64,000 nt of DNA from IMG/VR virus record IMGVR_UViG_3300037067_006949, positions 61,427-125,426 of that record. The stretch is one strand, 5' to 3'. The stretch's first letter is position 1. Each line of letters starts with the position of its first letter. Source of the DNA: a virus. Lineage: Duplodnaviria > Caudoviricetes. Positions 33,626 to 62,739 of the stretch are shown in pieces. The notes beneath the pieces are model-generated. The model saw only the letters and a list, made by a program, of their open reading frames with translations. It searched no databases and was not told the origin of the DNA. Made by a program: the position numbers and the translations under genes.

Positions 33626-34435
33626 TTATCCGCCTATTTTTCTAGCAAATTGATATGTCATCTTAAATGAATATAATCCACCAGCCAAAGTTAGCGAATT
33701 CAAACCAGGCAAAAGCCTGAACCATTTTTTATTAAATGCTCCCAATCGGTTTCCTCCATCAGAAACAATTGATTGAGTATAGTTGTTTACAGTTACCGTC
33801 TCACCAGAAGTAAGAGGCGTGGTTGCAGAGCCAGAAAATATGAAGGCTCGTTCACCATCTGTATGATTTGTCAATGAAATGCTGTTGCCTATATTATTTG
33901 TCTTAAATTCTATTGTAGGATACAGATAATCAGAATCGTCCGAGTTGTTATCAAAAGTAAAGTTTAAATTTTGAATTACGCCATCTGAAAATGTGTAAGA
34001 CAACGATTTTTCTTCTGTAAATCCATAAGGAGCGTCACATTGAGCATGTAACGTCACCCCTCTTTGTATGTTGCCCACATATTTGTTTTCAGCAGAAATG
34101 AACATAACATTGAAATATACATCTCCAATATCATCTTGGCATATTCTTAATGGCAAATATGTATTTCTTCCCAATAACCATTTTGATATAAACGATCTAT
34201 CAACACCAGTAATGGAGTCGATACCTCCTATAGTTAAATCAAAAGTCAAGGGGGTATTCATGCTTTTGCCATAAAAATATGGTTTTTGCTTTCGATACAA
34301 CCATGTTTGGTAAACAGTCGATTCACTTCCAGCAGGAGAATCTTCTGCTCCTCCAGTTTGTTCAAAGTTTAATATTCTAAGGTTATAAGATTCACTTGTA
34401 ACATTATCGAATATAAAATAATCTCCATAAAACAT
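33626..34435 (-). CDS. Distal tail protein (Dit-like)
   Basis: Directly downstream of the tape measure gene; CDAPYG, YPTIEF, WFRLLPGLNSL. Confidence 0.8.
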   Translation of the reverse strand: MFYGDYFIFDNVTSESYNLRILNFEQTGGAEDSPAGSESTVYQTWLYRKQKPYFYGKSMNTPLTFDLTIGGIDSITGVDRSFISKWLLGRNTYLPLRICQDDIGDVYFNVMFISAENKYVGNIQRGVTLHAQCDAPYGFTEEKSLSYTFSDGVIQNLNFTFDNNSDDSDYLYPTIEFKTNNIGNSISLTNHTDGERAFIFSGSATTPLTSGETVTVNNYTQSIVSDGGNRLGAFNKKWFRLLPGLNSLTLAGGLYSFKMTYQFARKIGG

Positions 34436-34466
34436 GTATTTACCTCCTTTCAGATTGCATTACAAC

Positions 34467-34498
34467 ATCGTGGCGAGAAAAGTTTCTCTCGCCACGAT
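34467..34498. terminator. Intergenic hairpin (terminator or processing stem)
   Basis: 12-bp stem ATCGTGGCGAGA/TCTCGCCACGAT between the tape measure and Dit genes; no clear U-tract. Confidence 0.45.
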
Positions 34499-34509
34499 AT
34501 CCAAAGTTA

Positions 34510-37500
34510 TTATAAACTATACGAATTCGCATTCTTCTGATTTCCCCTCAACTTCATCGCCTTGTAAACCGTTGTCAATATTACCTCTTTCAATTCTGGC
34601 AATACTGTTTTATCAAGGTTTCCAGCAACATTGAAGTTCATCTCTACGTTAGGAATGCTGTTGCTTCCTGCAAAGTTGGCAATCAAATTTGGCAAAGTTG
34701 TGTTTACAAACATTTTCATTTGTCCTTCATTTGCGACAACTTCTCCCTTTAGCAATTTCGCATATTGCTCAGCCTCTTTTATTTTTGGCAATCCACCAAC
34801 AATACCGCCAGAATGATGAGTCTGAACGGCATTCATCAGATCGTATCTGTCAATCTTTGAAGTGGTTGCGGCAGTAGACGATATCCCAGAAGATAGCGCA
34901 TCCATCTTGTCATATTTTGATGCAGGTGCATCCACTCCACCATAATTAGAAGGAAGAGGCGAAGAAACTGCTTTTGGAACATAGCTACCCCCACCACCAC
35001 CATATGAAGAGGCAACCGCATTTTGTGCGTCTCTCATCTTCCATAGTTTGGCTATGGTTGCGTCTACACCATCCCCATATTGACGATTCCATTCCAATAA
35101 AGCCTGATAGAAACTTTCGCTTCCAGCAGACAATAAAGCCATGGCATCTTGTGTAACTTGACCAGTATGAGCAAGATATTCATCAATTGCTTTTGTCTTG
35201 GCGTCTATCATTTCTTTGTATCTATTGTATTCTTCATCCAAGGCATCAGTTTGGGTTTCTAACGAATGATCAGCTTGAGTTTTGTCAATATCTTCAACCG
35301 CTTTTGCACGATCAGCCTCAAGTTCCAGTCTGCGACGTTTACCCTCTTCGCTATTATCGAATTGAAGTTGAAGTAATTCATTTTCGATATCGCTCAGAGT
35401 TTTATTCTTACTTGCAAGTTCATCCTGATAATCGGCTTCATCATGCGCGAGTTGTAATGATTTCTTACGTGCATCTATTATTTTCTTATAACCGTCAAGT
35501 TGATCTTTAAGAGAATCTTTCTCATCTTCTTTTTGTTGTCTAATCATTTTTATGGTTAGCTCAAGAAGATCATTGTACGCCTGTTGAGCATCACTAAGTT
35601 TATTGGTTGAACCAGCAGCACTAGACGTGGCACTTGCCATGGCGTTAGTCCAATATGTGCCATCTTTCATTTGACCCAAATAGGTCTGCATTACTTTTAT
35701 TCCGGCATCATTGGTTTTTAACTGAGCTTGCGAATTGGTCAATATTGCTTTTGACGCTGCTATTTGATTATTAGCGCTATTTATCGCGGCAATTGCAGCC
35801 TGACCATAAGCACCTTCTAGAAATCTTAAGGCCTGAATTTTAGCATTGGTTGTGCTGATAACCGTATTTGCAGAAGAAATATTTGCTTGAGCTTCTTGAA
35901 TAGTTGCGTTCAACGTAGTCGAAACTTGTTGTGCCTTAGCAATAGCCTCTTCCATTCTTGCTATTGTAAGCTGTTTCAATACATCTGTATTTAATCTTAT
36001 CTGACCATTTTCAATGGATAATGCTTCCGTATATTTATCTGGAAACATTGCTTTAAGTTGTTCAACCTGTTGCATTGATACTTCGCCAGATTTTTCATAA
36101 GCCGTCATCAAACCGACTACTTCATCAGCAAGAGATGAAATTTCCGCTTTAGCATCATTTGCTGCTTTTGATAATGCTTCTAAATCTCCAATAGCCGCTT
36201 TGTCACCAGCTTTTGGAGCAGGAATATCAGACATCGCTTGTAGTATGTGTTGTTGACCCTCATATTCAATTTTCAAGTTCTGAGCAGCAGCGACCTGATC
36301 AGCCATTTTGTTGTACTCTTCCGTAAGAGTCTCAACCATTTGCTTTGCGCCAGCGCCAGTTTTAGTCTGGTATTCAGATATCTTCTCTGCCAGATCAACC
36401 ATACGTTCTTGTGGAGTCAAATCCTCTTTTCCGGCATATCCGCCAGTAGAAGACATCGTAGCATAACCCGTCTTTTGTGACAAATATCCAGACGCTTGTT
36501 GATATCTTATTTTATTTTGTTCTATAAAGATGGTGGCTTGAGCTTCCGCTTGTTTCTTTATCCATTCTACATTTGTAGCAATGGCATCACTGTTACCAGA
36601 TATAGCATCAGTATAAAGATTTATTCCATCTTTAGATGCACCATATTTTGTTACCAAAATAGATTGTATATCAAGCAATCTTAAAGTATCTTCTGCCGAT
36701 TTTTCTTGCTTGGACGCCAATGTTTCATATTCGTCCGCAAGACTCTTTAATTCTGATTGATTGGAAGCTGTTATTTCTTGACTTTTCTTAAAAGAATCAT
36801 ATAAGTCCATCATTGATTCTTTAAATTTTCCAATCTTAATAATTCCAATTATAAGCGTGGCTATAATAATACTTATTCCAGCCGTTGCTACTCCCATAGC
36901 TAATGACATTCCGGCGGCGGCTGTTCCAGCCGTTACCTCGGCAGCAGTAACAAGACCCAAAGATGTAGAAAGACCAAACAGAGAGGATGCGTAGGATGCT
37001 ATATTTGCGATTAATACCGGAATAGAATTTATAAGTCCTTGAATCGAGATTGCTAATGATTGAGCATTAATAGTAATCATAAGTCCAATAATAACTTCAA
37101 GGACAGGAACTAAACCACCCATTTTGTTTATTAAATCTAAAATACTTGTTCCAAAATTTACAATGCCCTTAAGATCTCCAGACATTATAGTTTTAGTCCA
37201 CATTTCTTGCCATGTCGCTTTAAATTCATTTACAGCAGATTCAATACTCTGCATGTAAATTTTATATCTATCTGATGCTAAACCAGCGCTATTTGTTGCA
37301 ATATCTTGAGCCTTACCAACTTGCTCCCACCCATCAAAAAGCGCCGACAGCATATTAATTTGGCGAACCCAAAAACTGTTGCTTTCATTTATCTTAAAGA
37401 TAAATTACTGACCACATTAAAAATGTGGCGATTAGGGATTTCTTCCTAATTCTACGATTTGTTTTACTTCCGCTAGTAGTCGTAGAGCAGACTGTATATT

Positions 37501-40500
37501 AATCTTAATATTATATTAAGACTTGCAACTTAAGAATTATAGTTACCTATAAATCCTGGCAGTCGTTAGAGATACTTATTAATAAAATATTCGAAAACAT
37601 CTGGAAGTTTTCTCATATCCTTTCTTACTAATTCTATCATTTTTAAATTATTATCTTGACATATACTTTGCTTAATTTTAACATTTCCAACATATTCTCT
37701 CACATCTGGATATCCCCAATATTCGACGACATATTCATTATCCAAAAACCAATCCATTCTCTTTAAGCCGCATCTAGTATCATCACACACTTTTTTGTAA
37801 TGTTTTTCTTTATTATATGGTATATTATGTTCTATAAAAAAATTAGTAATCACTAATTCGGAATGAGAATAACAAACATCATTATTTTTAGAATAATATA
37901 ATTTAGCACTTCCAAAAAGAGAAATATTGATTTCTAAACCAGCAAGATCACATGCCTTTCTATATCCTCCAAAATACCTTTCATAAGATTTATCAGAAGG
38001 AAGTCCATAAAAAACAAGTTCATCTATAGAAGGCGTTCTATTGAGTCTTTGTCCCAGGTTAGATAAATCTTGTATCATTTTATCTGGAACAAAAGTTTTA
38101 TTATTTTGCAAATCGTTTTTCTTTAAATTAAGCTTTGACCCCATTAAATTGATAGAGGCGGTATTTCTATTGGGAAAAAATACGTCGCTCAAATATTTAT
38201 TGGGATAATATGGATATTTTTCTTTCAATATCCTTAACTCTTCTTCCGACCAATAATGATCTGTACATTCTAATCCTAGCTTAGTCGCCCTATGTTGTAA
38301 GGAATACTTTGTCAAATTAGGAATTCTAAAAAATATTTCTTCCCAATTAGAATTGGAATAGTATTTTTTAACAATTTCATCATATTCATCTGTCCATATA
38401 ACCCTTTTATGCAATCCTAAACCAGATGCTTTTCCTTGAATACTAGATTTATTTGTAGTCCCCAATACATTAAATAAAAAATCAAAATCTTTTTCCACAT
38501 AATATTTTTTTAATATTTCTATTTTTTCATCTGTCCATTTAAAATTTCCTATTCCTAAAGATTTGGCAACTTCATAAACAGTCCAGACAGACTTGTTTAT
38601 ATGTATGGCAATTTCTTTTGTAGGAATTTTTAAATAATTATTTTTTACAAATTCAACATCTTCTTCTGATATCACTTATTTATTCCTCAACCTTTTTTTA
38701 TTTCCAGATTTTTATTGCTTTTTTATTAATAAGTCTTTCTTCGGTCTCACCCTTGCGATGGGCTTTAACCGATATAGTTGCATTCTAGTAATATTTTAGT
38801 ATACCACAATATTGCAATTTCGTCAAGTGGTAAAACCTGTGCGTTACCCGTATGTTACCATACGTTCTGGCATTCTTTGTTTACCAGCAATCGCACCAAC
38901 AATTTGTTGCTGAGCCACCGTATTTCCGGCAGCCCCAAGTTCTTTATATTTTACGGCAACATCTTGTAATACCGCAGACATATCTCTGAAAGTATCGTTG
39001 TCTTCTCTTAATTTTATTCCATTTGATAATAATACCTTCTCAACATTATTGAGCGACTCACCTTCGGCATCAATGTCGCTGCCCGCTTTGACCTGTTCCA
39101 TTCTGGCAAAAATTGTTTTTCATATTTGTTACTCTTATTTGTGGATTAATACAAATAAGGAGGTCACTTCTTCTCTAAGGTGTCTTTACACCTGAGCAAC
39201 CTTCACGCATTTTATTTTAGGCTATAGTGCGTGATCAGACTGTTCCACATCCATCATAAATGGATTTCTCTTGTTCCAGTCGTTAACGGTGAAATATAAT
39301 TATAATTCTGCATGAGGAATTAAAATATTGTCATTTAATTTTAATTCTCCATTATTTATTTCATAATTCATAGAATGATAATTATCAAGAATCCCATTAT
39401 TCTTAATATATTCTAGAATTAATTTTTTGCATATTTCAAAACTATTATTAATATCATATTCCCACAAATATAATATCTTATAATTTTTGCTTAATATGTA
39501 TTCCCTCTTTCTTTTTTCTTTCAAAACGCCGTCACATCTATCTTTTCCTTTGGGAGAAGAATAAAAGCGAATATCAGAATGCCAATATGTACCATTAATT
39601 TCTATAACTAAATTTGTATTTTTAAAATGAATATCCGCCCAATATCTTCCTATTCTGTGTTCATTTTCAACTAAAAATTTTTCATTTTCTGAAAAATCAA
39701 ATACTTTTCTGTGAGGCGAAGTCATTGATGTCATGACATCTCTCATCATACATTTTCTGCAACAATACTTAACGGAATTTGATTTTATTTCATATGGTTT
39801 TCTAATTATTTCTTTTCCGCAAACTTTACAATTTATAATTCTTTCAATGTCCGAAATATTGTGATTATAACTAGGAGAATTCTTTCCCGATCTTGTTTCA
39901 CTTTGCCATAAACTTTGACATGCCATCGAACAAAATCTTAAAGTTTCGCCCTTTTTACAAACAAATTCTTCTCCACAATGTTCACAATTCCTAATATCGT
40001 TTGCTTGATTTTCTCTAAAAGAAGATTCGCATTCGACACAACAAAAATATGTTTCTTGCTTTAAATGTCTCAATCTGTCAATTTCTTCTCCACAATTTGA
40101 ACATAATACTTTTTTGGTGGGAGAATGTTCTGTGTTATACTTTACCTTGCATTCCTTGCAACAAAAGAAATTTCTCTTATGAATTTGCTCAAATTCTTTA
40201 CCGCATTTTTTGCAATTATACTTTATTCCTATACCAACCTTATTCTTATAAAAACCCATACATTCTAAACTACAAAAATGGTTTTCATTTTTGCTAGGCT
40301 TATCAGAAGAAATTCTGATAAATTCTTTTCCACAATTATTACATGTAAGATTATATTCGTGTTTTATTGGATTTTTTATAAAATAATTTTTTCTACAATC
40401 ATTACAACAAAAAATTTTAAGTTGATTGTTAGTTATAAATTCTTTTTCACAATTTTTACAATTCTTTGTATATTCTGTCTTTTTATTTTCTAGAAAATAA

Positions 40501-41758
40501 TACGACTTACAATTTGAAGAGCAATATATTTTATTTTTATTAGTCGTCTTGAATTCTTTTTTGCAATATTTACATTTTTTTATAATTTCTTCCATTATAA
40601 TTCCTTTTTGTTTTTTATAATTATATTTCTTCCGCTTCGTTGCCCCGCCTATGGGGTTTTCGAAACATCCTCCTTATGGGAAAGAGGAATCATTAAAGAG
40701 AATTTACATTGTGGATTATTGATTATACCACAATGCCCCAAATTTGTCAATATTAAATGAAATATTCATTATTATAGACAAATGTAATTTAATAGGGCTT
40801 GTCCAATAGTTTCACCAGATTGCCTAGTAGTGGCTGAAATCACCGTAATATACGATGCCAAATCTTTGTAACTTACACCAGCAAGTTTTGCCATACTAGC
40901 AGATTTCTGCATTGCGGAGGCGATTTCAGACGTGCTGGTGGCGAAAGAATTATCGAGGCCGATCAACGTATCCACAACTTGAATCGAATCTTTTGCACTA
41001 ATATTATAAGCATTTGTTACCGCGATTAATTTATCCGTAGCATCTGCCGCTTCCAAGTTACCTAATTTACTCATCATGGTACTTGATCTTAGAAGTTCCA
41101 TGGTGTCAGCCGCATTCTTGCCCTGCCGAATCCATTCTCCAGCCCCCTCAGCTACGGCGAGCGTATCGACTCCCAATTCACGCGCCATAGAATTAAATTC
41201 AGTTACCATTCCATTCAATTGTTCGGCGGTTTGACCAGTCACCATACCAATATTAGTCATAGCCTTATTTAAATCTTCAACGTACTGTATGCCTTCTCTT
41301 ACTTGTTGCAATGTACCAATGATAAGAGATGTAGCAATCATCCACTCTAAAACTTTTTTAGCGTCTTTCATTAAGGTCGTGCTAAAATTATCTACACTAG
41401 TGGTTGTGCTCCTAAAAGATTCGTTCACCGCAGAAACTTGATTTTTAAGTTGCCCTATGGCAACTCTAGCTTCTCCCGTAGCTTTTCTACTTCCATCAAG
41501 GTTGGTTATAAGTCCTTGAACATGTTCGCCCATCTTAACTATTTCTGGATTTTTGAATGCATCAGCATTCTTTATTTTTATTCCATCCAGTTGATTTTGT
41601 AGCGTTCCCATAGTGGTTTTTAATTGATCTCCACCACTAATGGTTGCTCTTATATTAACAGTTTTGTTTTTTACCGCATTGTTAATTTGCGCTTGTACGC
41701 CGGACGTATCTATAAGCGCTTTAATAATTACACTATAACTGCTTGAACCATCAGTCAT
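34510..41758 (-). CDS. Tape measure protein in three exons (41758-40794, 39120-38883, 37368-34510), 1353 aa after splicing
   Basis: TP901-type core; the joins restore GETIGQAL/KTIFARME and GAIAG/VRQINMLSAL in frame; exon lengths sum to 4062 nt = 1354 codons. Confidence 0.9.
37566..38675 (-). CDS. Intron-encoded putative homing endonuclease
   Basis: Repeated W[TS]xE helical units, an endonuclease-associated repeat (RTPS...YERYFGG), C-terminal PD-(D/E)XK-like SELVI...RMDW...VEYWG; its stop codon abuts P7. Confidence 0.75.
   Translation of the reverse strand: MISEEDVEFVKNNYLKIPTKEIAIHINKSVWTVYEVAKSLGIGNFKWTDEKIEILKKYYVEKDFDFLFNVLGTTNKSSIQGKASGLGLHKRVIWTDEYDEIVKKYYSNSNWEEIFFRIPNLTKYSLQHRATKLGLECTDHYWSEEELRILKEKYPYYPNKYLSDVFFPNRNTASINLMGSKLNLKKNDLQNNKTFVPDKMIQDLSNLGQRLNRTPSIDELVFYGLPSDKSYERYFGGYRKACDLAGLEINISLFGSAKLYYSKNNDVCYSHSELVITNFFIEHNIPYNKEKHYKKVCDDTRCGLKRMDWFLDNEYVVEYWGYPDVREYVGNVKIKQSICQDNNLKMIELVRKDMRKLPDVFEYFINKYL
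38798..38826 (-). promoter_or_regulatory. Sigma70-type promoter inside intron 2
   Basis: TTGACG, 17 nt spacer ending TGTGG, TATACT. Confidence 0.7.
39300..40595 (-). CDS. Intron-encoded endonuclease with seven Cys4 zinc-finger repeats and a Vsr/DUF559-like nuclease domain
   Basis: Seven CxxC...[FY]CxxxC units; EHRIGRYWADI...VIEINGTYWHSD...LYLWEYD. Confidence 0.8.
   Translation of the reverse strand: MEEIIKKCKYCKKEFKTTNKNKIYCSSNCKSYYFLENKKTEYTKNCKNCEKEFITNNQLKIFCCNDCRKNYFIKNPIKHEYNLTCNNCGKEFIRISSDKPSKNENHFCSLECMGFYKNKVGIGIKYNCKKCGKEFEQIHKRNFFCCKECKVKYNTEHSPTKKVLCSNCGEEIDRLRHLKQETYFCCVECESSFRENQANDIRNCEHCGEEFVCKKGETLRFCSMACQSLWQSETRSGKNSPSYNHNISDIERIINCKVCGKEIIRKPYEIKSNSVKYCCRKCMMRDVMTSMTSPHRKVFDFSENEKFLVENEHRIGRYWADIHFKNTNLVIEINGTYWHSDIRFYSSPKGKDRCDGVLKEKRKREYILSKNYKILYLWEYDINNSFEICKKLILEYIKNNGILDNYHSMNYEINNGELKLNDNILIPHAEL
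40722..40750 (-). promoter_or_regulatory. Perfect-consensus sigma70 promoter inside intron 1
   Basis: TTGACA, 17 nt spacer (contains the IGS GGGGC, ends TGTGG), TATAAT. Confidence 0.8.
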
Positions 41759-41784
41759 ATTACGTTACCTCCTATTCATAGGAA

Positions 41785-42285
41785 TTATCCTCTTATTACT
41801 CGTATTCCAATTTTGCCAAATTCTTCAGACATATATTTGTCAAACAGTTTTTCCATTCCACCATCATCAAACATTTGTTTAATAAATATGTCCCAATATG
41901 GCTTTCTGGCTTTTGTCATCCATCCCGACTCGCCATCTATGTTCAAAATATCGGCAAGTTGTTCTCTCGCATCTCCACTATATGGATTCCCATGGAGATA
42001 AGTCGTAGGATCGTAATCCATCCCCATCCAATCATAATAAATCCTTGTAACCACTTGGTTCATGTTATTTTCTATGTCCGTAAGTTTGAATGCTTCTAAA
42101 AATTGAAATGTTGGCATGCCACTACCGTTATAATAGTATGCGTTAGGCAAACCGCCGAACTGATAAGTATATTCCATAATATCGTTTGCCAATATTTCTA
42201 TCATATCCAAACTTGCCTTTTTTATAACATTGGAGGCAATTGGCAAAAGCATCGCTCTAAGTTGAGCGTCATTTCTTGCTGGCAT
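41785..42285 (-). CDS. Putative tail completion/neck protein
   Basis: Immediately upstream of the tape measure gene; ARKPYW motif; AGGAGG RBS. Confidence 0.5.
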   Translation of the reverse strand: MPARNDAQLRAMLLPIASNVIKKASLDMIEILANDIMEYTYQFGGLPNAYYYNGSGMPTFQFLEAFKLTDIENNMNQVVTRIYYDWMGMDYDPTTYLHGNPYSGDAREQLADILNIDGESGWMTKARKPYWDIFIKQMFDDGGMEKLFDKYMSEEFGKIGIRVIRG

Positions 42286-42297
42286 ACATTACCTCCT

Positions 42298-42732
42298 TTA
42301 ATAAATAAATAAAATTTCTGTTCTAGGATTTTCTTTGGAATAATTACCTTTTATAGTCAAAGATTCCACATGATTAAAATCATCATCAATCAGAAGTCCA
42401 GAAACAGTAAACGAATCGAATAAATTTTTTGGGGTATAATTGTCAGCGTCGTGTCTTCTTTTACTGTCAAAAAAATATTCAATTACAATTTTACACTTGG
42501 ATAATTTTCTATTCTCGAATCCATAATATTTCACAAGCCAATTTCCAAAATCTTTCCACGCCTGTTTTTGTGTGTTCATTTTAAATCTAGGCATGATCAT
42601 CCATGTATTTAGGCTAGGAGGAATGGGTTTATTAATATTCCTTATTCTTCTTCTTGGATATTCTTTAAAATACCAATCATAATATTTATCTATAACGTCA
42701 TTATCAATTATAATTTTTATCTTATTTTTCAC
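42298..42732 (-). CDS. RusA-like Holliday junction resolvase
   Basis: PPSLN, RRHDADN..K...D...G.L.DD, PRTEI. Confidence 0.8.
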   Translation of the reverse strand: MKNKIKIIIDNDVIDKYYDWYFKEYPRRRIRNINKPIPPSLNTWMIMPRFKMNTQKQAWKDFGNWLVKYYGFENRKLSKCKIVIEYFFDSKRRHDADNYTPKNLFDSFTVSGLLIDDDFNHVESLTIKGNYSKENPRTEILFIY

Positions 42733-62662: not shown

Positions 62663-62739
62663 AGCCTTAAGGGGGAATCGAACCCGAACCAACCTAGCGA
62701 TTACAGATCGCTCGCTCTGCCAATATGAGCTATTAAGGC
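62663..62739 (-). tRNA. tRNA-Thr(UGU)-like gene, atypical
   Basis: Acceptor GCCTTAA/TTAAGGC; D arm GCTC/GAGC; anticodon stem AGCGA/TCGCT with loop TC-TGT-AA; TTCGATT T loop. C at position 33, 3-nt bulge in the T stem, no encoded CCA. Confidence 0.7.

What the first reader, a model, noticed from the sequence alone, without database searches (positions are those of the whole stretch)
34510..41758. Tape measure gene split by two endonuclease-bearing group I introns around a 238-nt middle exon
Seen: three ORF-track fragments join in frame when 40793-39121 and 38882-37369 are removed (GCC CT|A AAA ACA = A-L-K-T; GCT GGT|GTT CGC = A-G-V-R). Both introns have a U-G pair in P1 at the 5' splice site, a terminal G, and P3/P4/P7/P8 pairings. 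Intron 2 has an insertion between P7 and P3' (IA-like) while intron 1 does not, and their ORFs are unrelated, so they look like independent invasions. Established: phage group I introns mostly interrupt DNA-metabolism genes, with fewer cases in late genes. Inference: tail assembly depends on two splicing events. Skipping exon 2 (238 nt) would shift the frame.
Basis: seen in the sequence. Interest (0 to 1): 0.8.

Follow-up and report, generated by a model that had tools for sequence, protein, structure and literature searches.

The report
Tape measure gene with two introns
A phage tail-length ("tape measure") gene is interrupted by two self-splicing-type group I introns, each carrying its own homing endonuclease gene; the reading holds up well, but the arrangement is already known from other phages.

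Summary
On the minus strand, 41758-40794, 39120-38883 and 37368-34510 join into one open 1353-codon frame. Uninterrupted tape measure (TMP) homologues align across both junctions without losing or gaining a residue.

- **Splice sites:** both inserts have U before the 5' splice site, a terminal G and a P1 guide pairing.
- **RNA fold:** each has a P1-P9 fold. I took each fold from the window sequence alone and tested it on three relatives at about the same TMP site. Intron 1 has 89.7% of cells paired and 29 of 94 pairs with compensatory changes. Intron 2 has 96.5% and 24 of 95. Slid controls give 35-48% and 1-7.
- **Guide sequence:** it covaries with the exon.
- **Reading frames:** each sits in the loop of a 14-bp P6 stem.
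- **Missing evidence:** Rfam finds neither intron, and no RNA data exist, so splicing is inferred.

The two endonucleases share no sequence similarity, but both have a Vsr/I-Bth0305I-like nuclease domain. The two ribozymes also share core words.

TMP introns, including two per gene, are published for Bacillus cereus prophages (2008) and for vibriophage ICP1 (2023). This is a new member of a known kind.

The scan holds a sibling note on this same stretch, about promoters inside the introns.

The parts
40794..41758 (-). TMP exon 1 (965 nt, residues 1-321 plus 2 nt of codon 322)
   Evidence: ORF from ATG 41758. Pfam PF10145 PhageMin_Tail model positions 6-137 of 201, cut off at the exon end. Homologue residues 2-313 of P0001 map here.
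39121..40793 (-). Intron 1, group I, 1673 nt; U40794 precedes it and G39121 ends it
   Evidence: P1 GCCCU(40798-40794)/GGGGC(40739-40735); P1a 40783-40777/40748-40742; P2 40734-40728/40714-40708; P3 40702-40696/39272-39266; P4 40665-40661/40639-40635; P5 40656-40653/40646-40643; P6 40634-40632/39289-39287; P6a 40628-40615/39305-39292; P7 39281-39277/39242-39238; P8 39265-39260/39254-39249; P9 39233-39228/39209-39204; P9.1, P9.1a and P9.2 further 3'. Covariation.
40668..40688 (-). Extra hairpin between P3 and P4 of intron 1 ('P3a', UCCUC/GAGGA)
   Evidence: All 20 cells are paired and 4 of the 5 pairs show compensatory changes across the four family members (helix 5). Intron 2 has no counterpart.
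39300..40595 (-). Intron 1 ORF, 431 aa: repeated CxxC zinc-ribbon modules plus a C-terminal Vsr/EDxHD-type nuclease domain
   Evidence: PDB 3r3p (I-Bth0305I) at E 0.0024 for the single sequence and E 8.3e-07 for the family profile. Cysteine pairs are invariant. AAGGA lies 7 nt before the ATG. The stop codon lies inside the 3' strand of P6a.
40722..40750 (-). Promoter-like site inside intron 1 (TTGACA, 17 nt, TATAAT, with TG)
   Evidence: 12 of 12 matches, the best site in 34300-42400. Conserved in L014 and L016, weaker in L015. The -35 box is the 3' strand of P1a; the -10 box lies in the P2 loop.
38883..39120 (-). TMP exon 2 (238 nt, residues 322-401)
   Evidence: P0001 residues 314-392 map to 39119..38883 at 68% identity. 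This is the C-terminal third of the PF10145 domain, which spans 182-391 in P0001.
37369..38882 (-). Intron 2, group I with P7.1, 1514 nt; U38883 precedes it and G37369 ends it
   Evidence: P1 38887-38883/38871-38867; P10 38875-38872/37368-37365; P2 38864-38859/38854-38849; P3 38782-38777/37529-37524; P4 38771-38767/38746-38742; P5 38763-38760/38752-38749; P6 38734-38721/37587-37574; P7 37564-37560/37494-37490; P7.1 37555-37547/37542-37534; P8 37521-37515/37509-37503; P9 37486-37480/37457-37451; P9.1-P9.3 down to 37387. Covariation.
37566..38675 (-). Intron 2 ORF, 369 aa (GTG start): Myb-like helix-turn-helix repeats, PF18780 repeat, C-terminal Vsr-fold nuclease domain
   Evidence: Pfam PF18780 at E 1.7e-08. 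Myb similarity. AlphaFold2 model with mean pLDDT 85.5. Residues 269-367 versus 3r3p: Z 9.5; TnsA Z 9.0; Vsr Z 7.7. The last codons form the 3' strand of P6, and the stop TAA overlaps J6/7.
38798..38826 (-). Promoter-like site inside intron 2 (TTGACG, 17 nt, TATACT, with TG)
   Evidence: 10 of 12 matches. It lies in the variable P2.1 arm. Present in L012; the whole arm is short and lacks it in L010 and L013.
34510..37368 (-). TMP exon 3 (2859 nt including the stop, residues 402-1353)
   Evidence: The ORF ends at 34510. Homologue residues 393 onward map from 37368.

Best explanation
The region is one tape measure protein gene of a roughly 125-kb uncultivated phage, interrupted by two mobile group I introns. 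Each intron RNA folds into a P1-P9 ribozyme. Its guide sequence pairs with the last exon bases, with a U-G wobble at the 5' splice site. Guanosine-initiated transesterification followed by attack at the terminal G then joins the exons (inferred from the family's known chemistry). Only the doubly spliced mRNA encodes the 1353-aa protein. Exon 2 supplies the last third of the conserved PF10145 domain. Each intron carries, in the loop of a 14-bp P6 stem, a gene for a site-specific Vsr-fold endonuclease with its own Shine-Dalgarno sequence and a promoter-like site. This enzyme would cut intron-less TMP alleles in co-infecting relatives, so that repair copies the intron in (homing; inferred). What is shown: exon contiguity, splice-site rules, covarying structure, endonuclease fold, and the same intron types at or near the same sites in other phages. 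What is inferred: splicing activity, endonuclease activity, and promoter use.
For: (1) The join gives an open 1353-codon frame, and intron-less homologues are collinear across both junctions.
(2) U at -1 and G at the intron end hold in all 8 family members. In L015 and L016 only this choice gives the Phe that L014 encodes uninterrupted.
(3) The structure was taken from the window sequence alone and counted on sequence-only MAFFT alignments. Intron 1 family: 89.7% of cells paired against 40-48% when slid, and 29 of 94 pairs changed on both sides against 2-6 when slid; for each of these two measures, 0 of 500 shuffles reached the observed value. Intron 2 family: 96.5% against 35-40%, and 24 of 95 against 1-7; for each of these two measures, 0 of 500 shuffles reached the observed value.
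(4) The guide sequence covaries with the exon. Intron 1 family: GCCCU/GGGGC, GCCUU/GAGGC, CCUU/GAGG, and CUCU/GGAG at a shifted site. Intron 2 family: CUGGU/GCCAG against CCGGU/GCCGG.
(5) Core words match the Rfam group I consensus, with a compensatory P7 change from GACUA/UAGUC to GACUG/CAGUC. An ORF-less element with the same words elsewhere in this genome gets a full-length but sub-threshold Intron_gpI match, 27.1 bits, E 5.3e-05.
(6) The relatives L003 and L004 carry an Rfam-positive group I intron (77.8 bits) at another site of the same gene.
(7) Metagenome contig variants from two studies change 37551/37538, 37549/37540 and 37548/37541 in step, which keeps P7.1 paired.
(8) Both ORFs are homing-endonuclease-like, and their relatives all lie inside TMP genes.
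(9) The insertion sites fall at the 96th-99th percentile of local TMP conservation.
Against: Rfam RF00028 finds nothing in either intron. This holds at gathering score, at E up to 10 over 37200-41000, and on the four ORF-free halves given separately. No spliced RNA has been seen. Intron 1 has non-canonical traits: a 55-nt P1 extension, a hairpin in J3/4, and a P10 of at most 3 A-U pairs. Each comparative set holds only four sequences, and their relatedness inflates the shuffle control (the slid control does not suffer from this). P3 and P7 of intron 2 and P7 of intron 1 never vary, so they are untested by covariation.
Confidence: 0.92

Rival explanations
1. The inserts are free-standing or decayed endonuclease cassettes that are not spliced. 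The tape measure function would then be supplied by three separate polypeptides, or the gene would be dead in a defective phage.
For: Splicing has not been observed. Rfam finds no group I match. Each downstream fragment has an in-frame ATG near its start, at 39101 and 37353.
Against: Neither ATG is preceded by a Shine-Dalgarno-like word, whereas both endonuclease ORFs have one. Extensive compensatory change across about 95 pairs per intron, including pairing between the guide sequence and the exon, has no explanation without a functional RNA. The fragment boundaries fall inside a codon and inside the PF10145 domain. The interrupted arrangement recurs in contigs from four independent studies and in diverged phages.
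Confidence: 0.04
2. They are group I introns by descent, but one or both ribozymes depend on a protein cofactor (a maturase-like role of the encoded protein, or a host factor) rather than self-splicing. Alternatively, they splice inefficiently and so throttle the supply of tape measure protein.
For: Intron 1 has an unusual insertion in J3/4 and a weak P10. Both cores are very A+U-rich, with a 5-bp P7 and P4.
Against: Nothing in the sequence requires a cofactor. The paired elements are complete and conserved. Phage group I introns with similar A+U content (T4 td, SPO1, Twort) self-splice in vitro (my knowledge, not tested here).
Confidence: 0.03
3. The inserts are inteins or group II introns.
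For: Both kinds of element also carry homing endonucleases and interrupt conserved phage genes.
Against: The inserts are out of frame with the exons and full of stop codons. The endonuclease ORFs are not fused to the host frame. There is no reverse transcriptase and no domain V/VI. The pairings found are those of group I introns.
Confidence: 0.005

Closest known systems
Group I introns TMP-IVS1/2/3 in tape measure genes of Bacillus cereus-group prophages (Tourasse & Kolsto 2008, PMC2504315)
   Same: Group I (IA-type) introns inside the conserved part of a TMP of more than 1200 aa. There are several insertion sites, and some TMP genes hold two introns. Related ribozymes sit at different sites with re-tuned P1/guide sequences, which is the pattern seen here between L014 and the window, L015 and L016.
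   Different: Different phages (an uncultivated 125-kb phage from groundwater and landfill metagenomes, 34.5% G+C). No detectable nucleotide similarity to any record in the phage collection. Several of the B. cereus introns lack a complete endonuclease gene, whereas both introns here carry intact ones. I did not align insertion positions between the two TMP families.
HEG-bearing intron(s) in the tape measure gene of vibriophage ICP1 (Barth et al. 2023, PMC10448857)
   Same: The TMP gene is split by an intron-borne homing endonuclease gene. One isolate has two intronic HEGs. TMP is named there as a frequently interrupted gene. The HEG cargo varies while the intron context stays the same.
   Different: ICP1 splicing was shown by RNA-seq and RT-PCR; here it is inferred. 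The ICP1 HEGs are of HNH-3 type; here both are Vsr-fold nucleases.
I-Bth0305I, prototype of the EDxHD homing endonuclease family (Taylor et al. 2011, PMC3239194; PDB 3r3p)
   Same: Intron-encoded, with an N-terminal DNA-binding region and a C-terminal Vsr-like catalytic domain. In ORF1 the Asp and His that correspond to D196 and H213 align (D321, H339), as do N334 and an acidic residue at 360.
   Different: The ORF1 N-terminal part is a run of CxxC zinc ribbons, not NUMOD/HTH motifs. The first motif position (E170) is His in the ORF1 family. ORF2 shares only the fold (Z 9.5), has no invariant His, and has Myb-like repeats plus PF18780. The host gene is a TMP, not recA.
Phage T4 td/nrdB/nrdD and SPO1/Twort group IA introns
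   Same: The ORF is looped out of a peripheral stem (P6 in td). The ORF has its own promoter-like site inside the intron. P7.1 is present in intron 2 (my knowledge of these introns, not tested here).
   Different: Those introns interrupt nucleotide-metabolism or polymerase genes. Intron 1 here lacks P7.1/P7.2 and has a hairpin in J3/4.

Membership tests
Group I intron | 5' splice site follows a U that forms a U-G wobble in P1 with an internal guide sequence | tested here: met
   U40794-G40739 and U38883-G38871. The P1 strands covary with the exon in relatives.
Group I intron | Intron ends in G (omega G) | tested here: met
   G39121 and G37369. The same holds in all six relatives, with in-frame joins.
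Group I intron | Conserved core P3-P4-P5-P6 / P7-P3'-P8-P7' with the P3/P7 pseudoknot, supported by covariation | tested here: met
   P2, P5, P6/P6a, P8 and P9.x in both families, P3 in intron 1 and P7.1 in intron 2 show changes on both sides. P7 (both introns) and P3 of intron 2 are invariant, so they are compatible but untested.
Group I intron | P10 pairing between the guide region and the 3' exon | tested here: inconclusive
   Intron 2: GAAU/GUUC, adjacent to P1, with 3 of 4 pairs kept through two changes in L013. Intron 1: at most UUU/AAA.
Group I intron | Match to the Rfam covariance model RF00028 at gathering score | tested here: not met
   No match for the whole introns or for the ORF-free halves. 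The model did find the ORF-downstream intron of L003/L004 at 77.8 bits. It gave 27.1 bits to the ORF-less relative in this genome. A 1.1-1.3-kb ORF inside P6 splits the core beyond what the model can bridge.
Group I intron | Guanosine-dependent self-splicing; ligated exons in RNA | not testable with these tools
   No RNA run holds this phage.
TP901-type phage tape measure protein (PF10145 PhageMin_Tail) | PF10145 domain plus a long, largely helical C-terminal part, with the gene in the tail module | tested here: met
   Exon 1 matches PF10145 positions 6-137 of 201 at E 7e-21. In the collinear homologue P0001 the domain spans residues 182-391, that is exon 1 plus exon 2. Homologues of 1264-1282 aa. 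Baseplate and tail genes lie downstream.
EDxHD / Vsr-like homing endonucleases (ORF1) | C-terminal domain homologous to I-Bth0305I/Vsr with the catalytic Asp, His and second acidic residue | tested here: met
   Profile against 3r3p at E 8.3e-07; Vsr 1cw0 and 1vsr weaker. D321, N334, H339 and acidic 360 align with D196, N208, H213 and D222. The first motif residue is His, not Glu.
EDxHD / Vsr-like homing endonucleases (ORF2) | Same fold and the EDxHD residues | tested here: inconclusive
   Fold: best match 3r3p at Z 9.5, rmsd 2.9 A, 89 of 98 residues. Sequence: hhalign to the ORF1 family gives probability 5%. Invariant residues are E273, D308, E318 and K335, with no invariant His. The residues were not mapped onto the active site.

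The most novel reading that the evidence does not exclude
In this clade of uncultivated phages, the conserved PF10145 core of the tape measure gene is a hotspot with at least five distinct intron sites within about 190 codons (residues 210, 268, 314, 321 and 401). One ribozyme lineage (shared J6/7-P7, P7' and 3'-terminal words) may have colonised several of these sites by re-tuning its guide sequence and swapping its endonuclease cargo. The intron 1 branch has also gained a structured, covarying hairpin inside J3/4, a joining segment that is normally 3-5 nt long and forms core base triples.
Probability: 0.35. Interest if true: 0.5.

Novelty: new member of a known kind. Interest (0 to 1): 0.4.

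Why it matters
This is a clean, well-supported example of a late structural gene whose product depends on two RNA splicing events, in a phage known only from metagenomes. Gene callers split such a gene into three "hypothetical" fragments plus two endonuclease genes, so recognising the introns corrects the annotation of the TMP, and with it any estimate of tail length. The comparative set gathered here covers five intron sites, guide-sequence retargeting over 7-8 codons, two endonuclease types found in either order, and a Vsr-fold endonuclease with Myb-like repeats. That makes it useful raw material for studying how group I introns and their endonucleases move and recombine. It also shows a blind spot of Rfam RF00028 for introns with an ORF in P6. 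It does not change what is known about phage introns in principle.

Tried and rejected
- **Rfam.** There was no group I match in the window at gathering score, at E up to 10 on 37200-41000, or on the four ORF-free halves L006-L009 given as separate loci to allow truncated matches.
- **Nucleotide searches of the phage collection.** Megablast of the whole gene found nothing. blastn of both intron 3' parts gave only chance hits at E about 0.6. tblastn of exon 2 found nothing.
- **IMG/VR scans.** Scans with both endonuclease proteins found no relative. The exact word ACAGTCTGCTCTACGACTAC found nothing.
- **Sequencing runs.** No RNA holder is listed. I laid contigs from four DNA runs on 36800-41300. 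No intron-less joint (40794 to 39120, or 38883 to 37368) appeared. The joints that were listed have short sides of 20-33 nt and look like repeats or other organisms.
- **The look-up of encoding contigs.** P0046, P0052 and P0078 are not on record. P0077 returned a gene list but no DNA.
- **Similarity between the two intron families.** A local alignment of the ORF-free parts gave only short shared words, with z between -0.6 and 5.9 depending on the pair. I therefore do not claim that the ribozymes are close relatives.
- **Joint covariance model.** I considered a joint model of both 3' halves. I dropped it because MAFFT put P8 of the two families in different registers.
- **Foldseek.** Searching PDB with the whole ORF2 model gave no match at E 0.001 or better. 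The domain-level match came from the VIA second look.
- **Rejected readings.** I considered and rejected inteins, group II introns and translation as three separate polypeptides (see the rival explanations).


Full report
**Observation.** On the minus strand an ORF runs from ATG 41758 and stops at 40772. A 1296-nt ORF (40595-39300) and a 1110-nt ORF (38675-37566) follow, each flanked by non-coding sequence, and a 947-codon ORF ends at 34510. Removing 40793-39121 and 38882-37369 joins 965 + 238 + 2859 nt into one open frame of 1353 codons. The junctions read ..GETIGQA-L-KTIFARMEQ.. and ..QIVGAIAG-VRQINMLSAL...

**Exon joins.** Full-length tape measure proteins of 1264-1282 aa, encoded without interruption elsewhere, were found with exon 1 as the query. 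In tblastn against the window, their residues run without loss or gain from one exon to the next. P0001 residues 2-313, 314-392 and 393-527 map to 41743..40793, 39119..38883 and 37368..36970. P0002, P0007, P0008, P0009, P0013 and P0014 behave alike. The closest relatives in IMG/VR (L003 and L004, 78-86% identical around the sites) read straight through both positions. Pfam PF10145 matches exon 1 only up to model position 137 of 201. In P0001 the same domain spans residues 182-391, which is exon 1 plus exon 2. Intron 1 therefore sits inside the domain and intron 2 at its C-terminal edge. Neither downstream exon has a Shine-Dalgarno word before its first ATG.

**Are the inserts group I introns?** Rfam gives no match, whether searched whole or as ORF-free halves. 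The test therefore had to be comparative.

- **Collecting relatives.** I searched with the two intron ORFs and fetched the contigs of their relatives. Every fetched relative lies inside a TMP gene.
- **Sites.** Mapped onto the spliced TMP, ORF2-type inserts sit at residue 401/402 in L010 (identical to L011), L012 and L013. ORF1-type inserts sit at 321/322 in L015 and L016. In L014 the insert sits 7-8 codons upstream (..TRKSS|ESIGESF..).
- **Further sites.** L016 has a second intron at 268/269. L003 and L004 have an Rfam-positive group I intron (77.8 bits) at 210/211. That makes at least five sites within about 190 codons.
- **Conservation.** The sites at 210, 314, 321 and 401 lie at the 93rd-99th percentile of local TMP conservation. 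The 268 site lies at the 68th.
- **Splice-site rules.** All eight introns follow a U and end in G, with in-frame joins. In L015 and L016 only that choice yields Phe at the split codon, the residue that L014 encodes uninterrupted.

**RNA structure.** I wrote the pairings from the window sequence alone. I then counted them on sequence-only MAFFT alignments of each whole intron with its three relatives (A2 and A1).

| Measure | Intron 1 | Intron 2 |
|---|---|---|
| Pairs tested | 94 | 95 |
| Cells forming standard pairs | 89.7% | 96.5% |
| Same, with 3' partners slid 1-3 columns | 40-48% | 35-40% |
| Pairs changed on both sides | 29 | 24 |
| Same, slid | 2-6 | 1-7 |
| Shuffles reaching either observed value | 0 of 500 | 0 of 500 |

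- **Helices with compensatory changes, intron 1:** P2, P3 (UUCUCUU/AAGAGAA becomes UUUCCUU/AAGGAAA in L016), P5, P6a (6 of 14 pairs), P8 (5 of 6), P9.1 and P9.1a.
- **Helices with compensatory changes, intron 2:** P2, P5, P7.1 (7 of 9), P9, P9.2 and P9.3.
- **Misaligned helices.** The few weak helices of intron 1 (P1a, P9, P9.2) are cases where MAFFT misaligned hairpins. Each of these pairs in every sequence when read by eye.
- **Untested helices.** P7 (GACUG/CAGUC) is invariant in both introns, as is P3 of intron 2.
- **Link to the Rfam consensus.** The Rfam consensus has GACUA/UAGUC at P7, so the change seen here is itself compensatory.
- **Guide sequence.** It tracks the exon. Intron 1 family: GCCCU/GGGGC (window), GCCUU/GAGGC (L016), CCUU/GAGG (L015) and CUCU/GGAG at the shifted L014 site. 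Intron 2 family: CUGGU/GCCAG against CCGGU/GCCGG in L013.
- **P10.** Intron 2 has a canonical P10 (GAAU/GUUC) next to P1. The P10 of intron 1 is weak.
- **Independent variants.** Contig variants in two metagenome studies change 37551/37538, 37549/37540 and 37548/37541 in step.
- **Third element.** An ORF-less element elsewhere in the same genome carries the same core words. It gets a full-length but sub-threshold Intron_gpI match (27.1 bits, E 5.3e-05), and the helix assignment matches the one used here.

**Anatomy.** In both introns the ORF lies in the loop of a 14-bp extension of P6, and the ORF's last codons and stop form the 3' strand. This explains why the covariance model fails. Intron 2 has a P7.1 hairpin with a GUAA loop between P7 and P3'. 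Intron 1 instead has a long P1 extension and a covarying hairpin between P3 and P4 (40688-40668), which is unusual. Both introns hold a promoter-like site upstream of the ORF. The intron 1 site scores 12 of 12 with an extended -10 and is the best in 8 kb. It is conserved in L014 and L016 and overlaps P1a and P2. The intron 2 site scores 10 of 12 and lies in a variable arm that L010 and L013 lack. The number of such sites in the region is not above chance, so promoter use is inferred.

**The endonucleases.**

- **ORF1 (431 aa).** It has repeated CxxC pairs, all invariant in 22 relatives. Its C-terminal domain matches the I-Bth0305I catalytic domain (E 0.0024 alone, 8.3e-07 as a profile). D321, N334, H339 and an acidic residue at 360 sit at the positions of D196, N208, H213 and D222 of that enzyme (PMC3239194).
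- **ORF2 (369 aa).** It has Myb-like repeats and PF18780. Its AlphaFold2 model has a mean pLDDT of 85.5. The best structural match for residues 269-367 is again I-Bth0305I (Z 9.5, rmsd 2.9 A, 89 residues), ahead of TnsA and Vsr.
- **Relationship.** The two proteins are not alike in sequence, and ORF2 has no invariant His. They are two Vsr-fold nucleases with different DNA-binding heads, not wholly unrelated genes.
- **Ribozymes.** The two ribozymes share CUAACGACUG, ACAGUCUG and a 3'-terminal word. The last 20 nt are identical between L015 and L013. Little else is shared.

**What is known.** Tourasse and Kolsto (2008) described IA1/IA2 introns at three sites in TMP genes of B. cereus-group prophages. 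Some of those genes hold two introns, and related ribozymes are re-tuned to different sites (PMC2504315). Barth et al. (2023) named TMP as a frequently HEG-interrupted gene. They showed splicing of the ICP1 TMP intron by RNA-seq and RT-PCR and reported an isolate with two intronic HEGs (PMC10448857). The present case is a new member of that kind, in a 125,426-nt virus record that is 91% complete, has 34.5% G+C, and has near-identical DNA in groundwater and landfill metagenomes.

**Verdict.** Splicing and homing are inferred, not shown. Confidence that these are functional group I introns needed for TMP expression is 0.92.

Noticed in passing
outside the window: genome G000:C1 2045-2260, minus strand (locus L017): An ORF-less element with the same core words as the two TMP introns (CUCUAACGACUA .. 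GUAUAGUCUG .. CUGCAA/UUGCAG). It gives a full-length but sub-threshold Rfam Intron_gpI match (27.1 bits against a gathering score of 50, E 5.3e-05). This is probably a third group I intron in this phage. Its host gene was not worked out; the flanking ORFs are 2240-2602 and 708-1715 (Laminin_G_3-like).
   Followed up: partly
window 40722-40750 and 38798-38826, minus strand: Sigma-70-like promoters lie inside both introns, upstream of the endonuclease ORFs. In intron 1 the -35 box is the 3' strand of the P1 extension and the -10 box lies in the P2 loop; the site is conserved in L014 and L016. A transcript begun there would lack the 5' exon and could not splice.
   Followed up: partly
window 40668-40688, minus strand: A covarying 5-9 bp hairpin lies between P3 and P4 of the intron 1 family, where J3/4 is normally a few nucleotides long. 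All four family members have it with different sequences.
   Followed up: partly
L016:1-3855 (Logan contig from ERR11003026), and the contig of P0077 (gene list only): The same two endonuclease types appear inside one TMP gene but in the opposite order. The PF18780-type comes first, at residue 268/269 in L016, and the Zn-ribbon/Vsr-type second, at 321/322 in L016. For the P0077 contig only the gene order is known, not the sites.
   Followed up: partly
L004:5131-6138, L012:1-991, L013:114-1121, L014:116-1150: In the relatives, a Phage_integrase (PF00589) gene lies directly upstream of the tape measure gene. That is an odd place for an integrase in a tail module. In the window's genome a PF00589 ORF is at genome 3133-4158.
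   Followed up: no
window 40753-40872 (contig X1 record 7): One groundwater contig is nearly identical through the intron 1 ORF. It differs at about 19 listed substitution positions across the 5' end of intron 1 and the adjoining exon 1 (40760-40872), 13 of them in exon 1. This is what homing of the same intron into a diverged TMP allele would leave.
   Followed up: no
window 62663-62739, minus strand: One tRNA gene (Rfam 43.3 bits) with an unusually long variable or T-arm region in the alignment.
   Followed up: no
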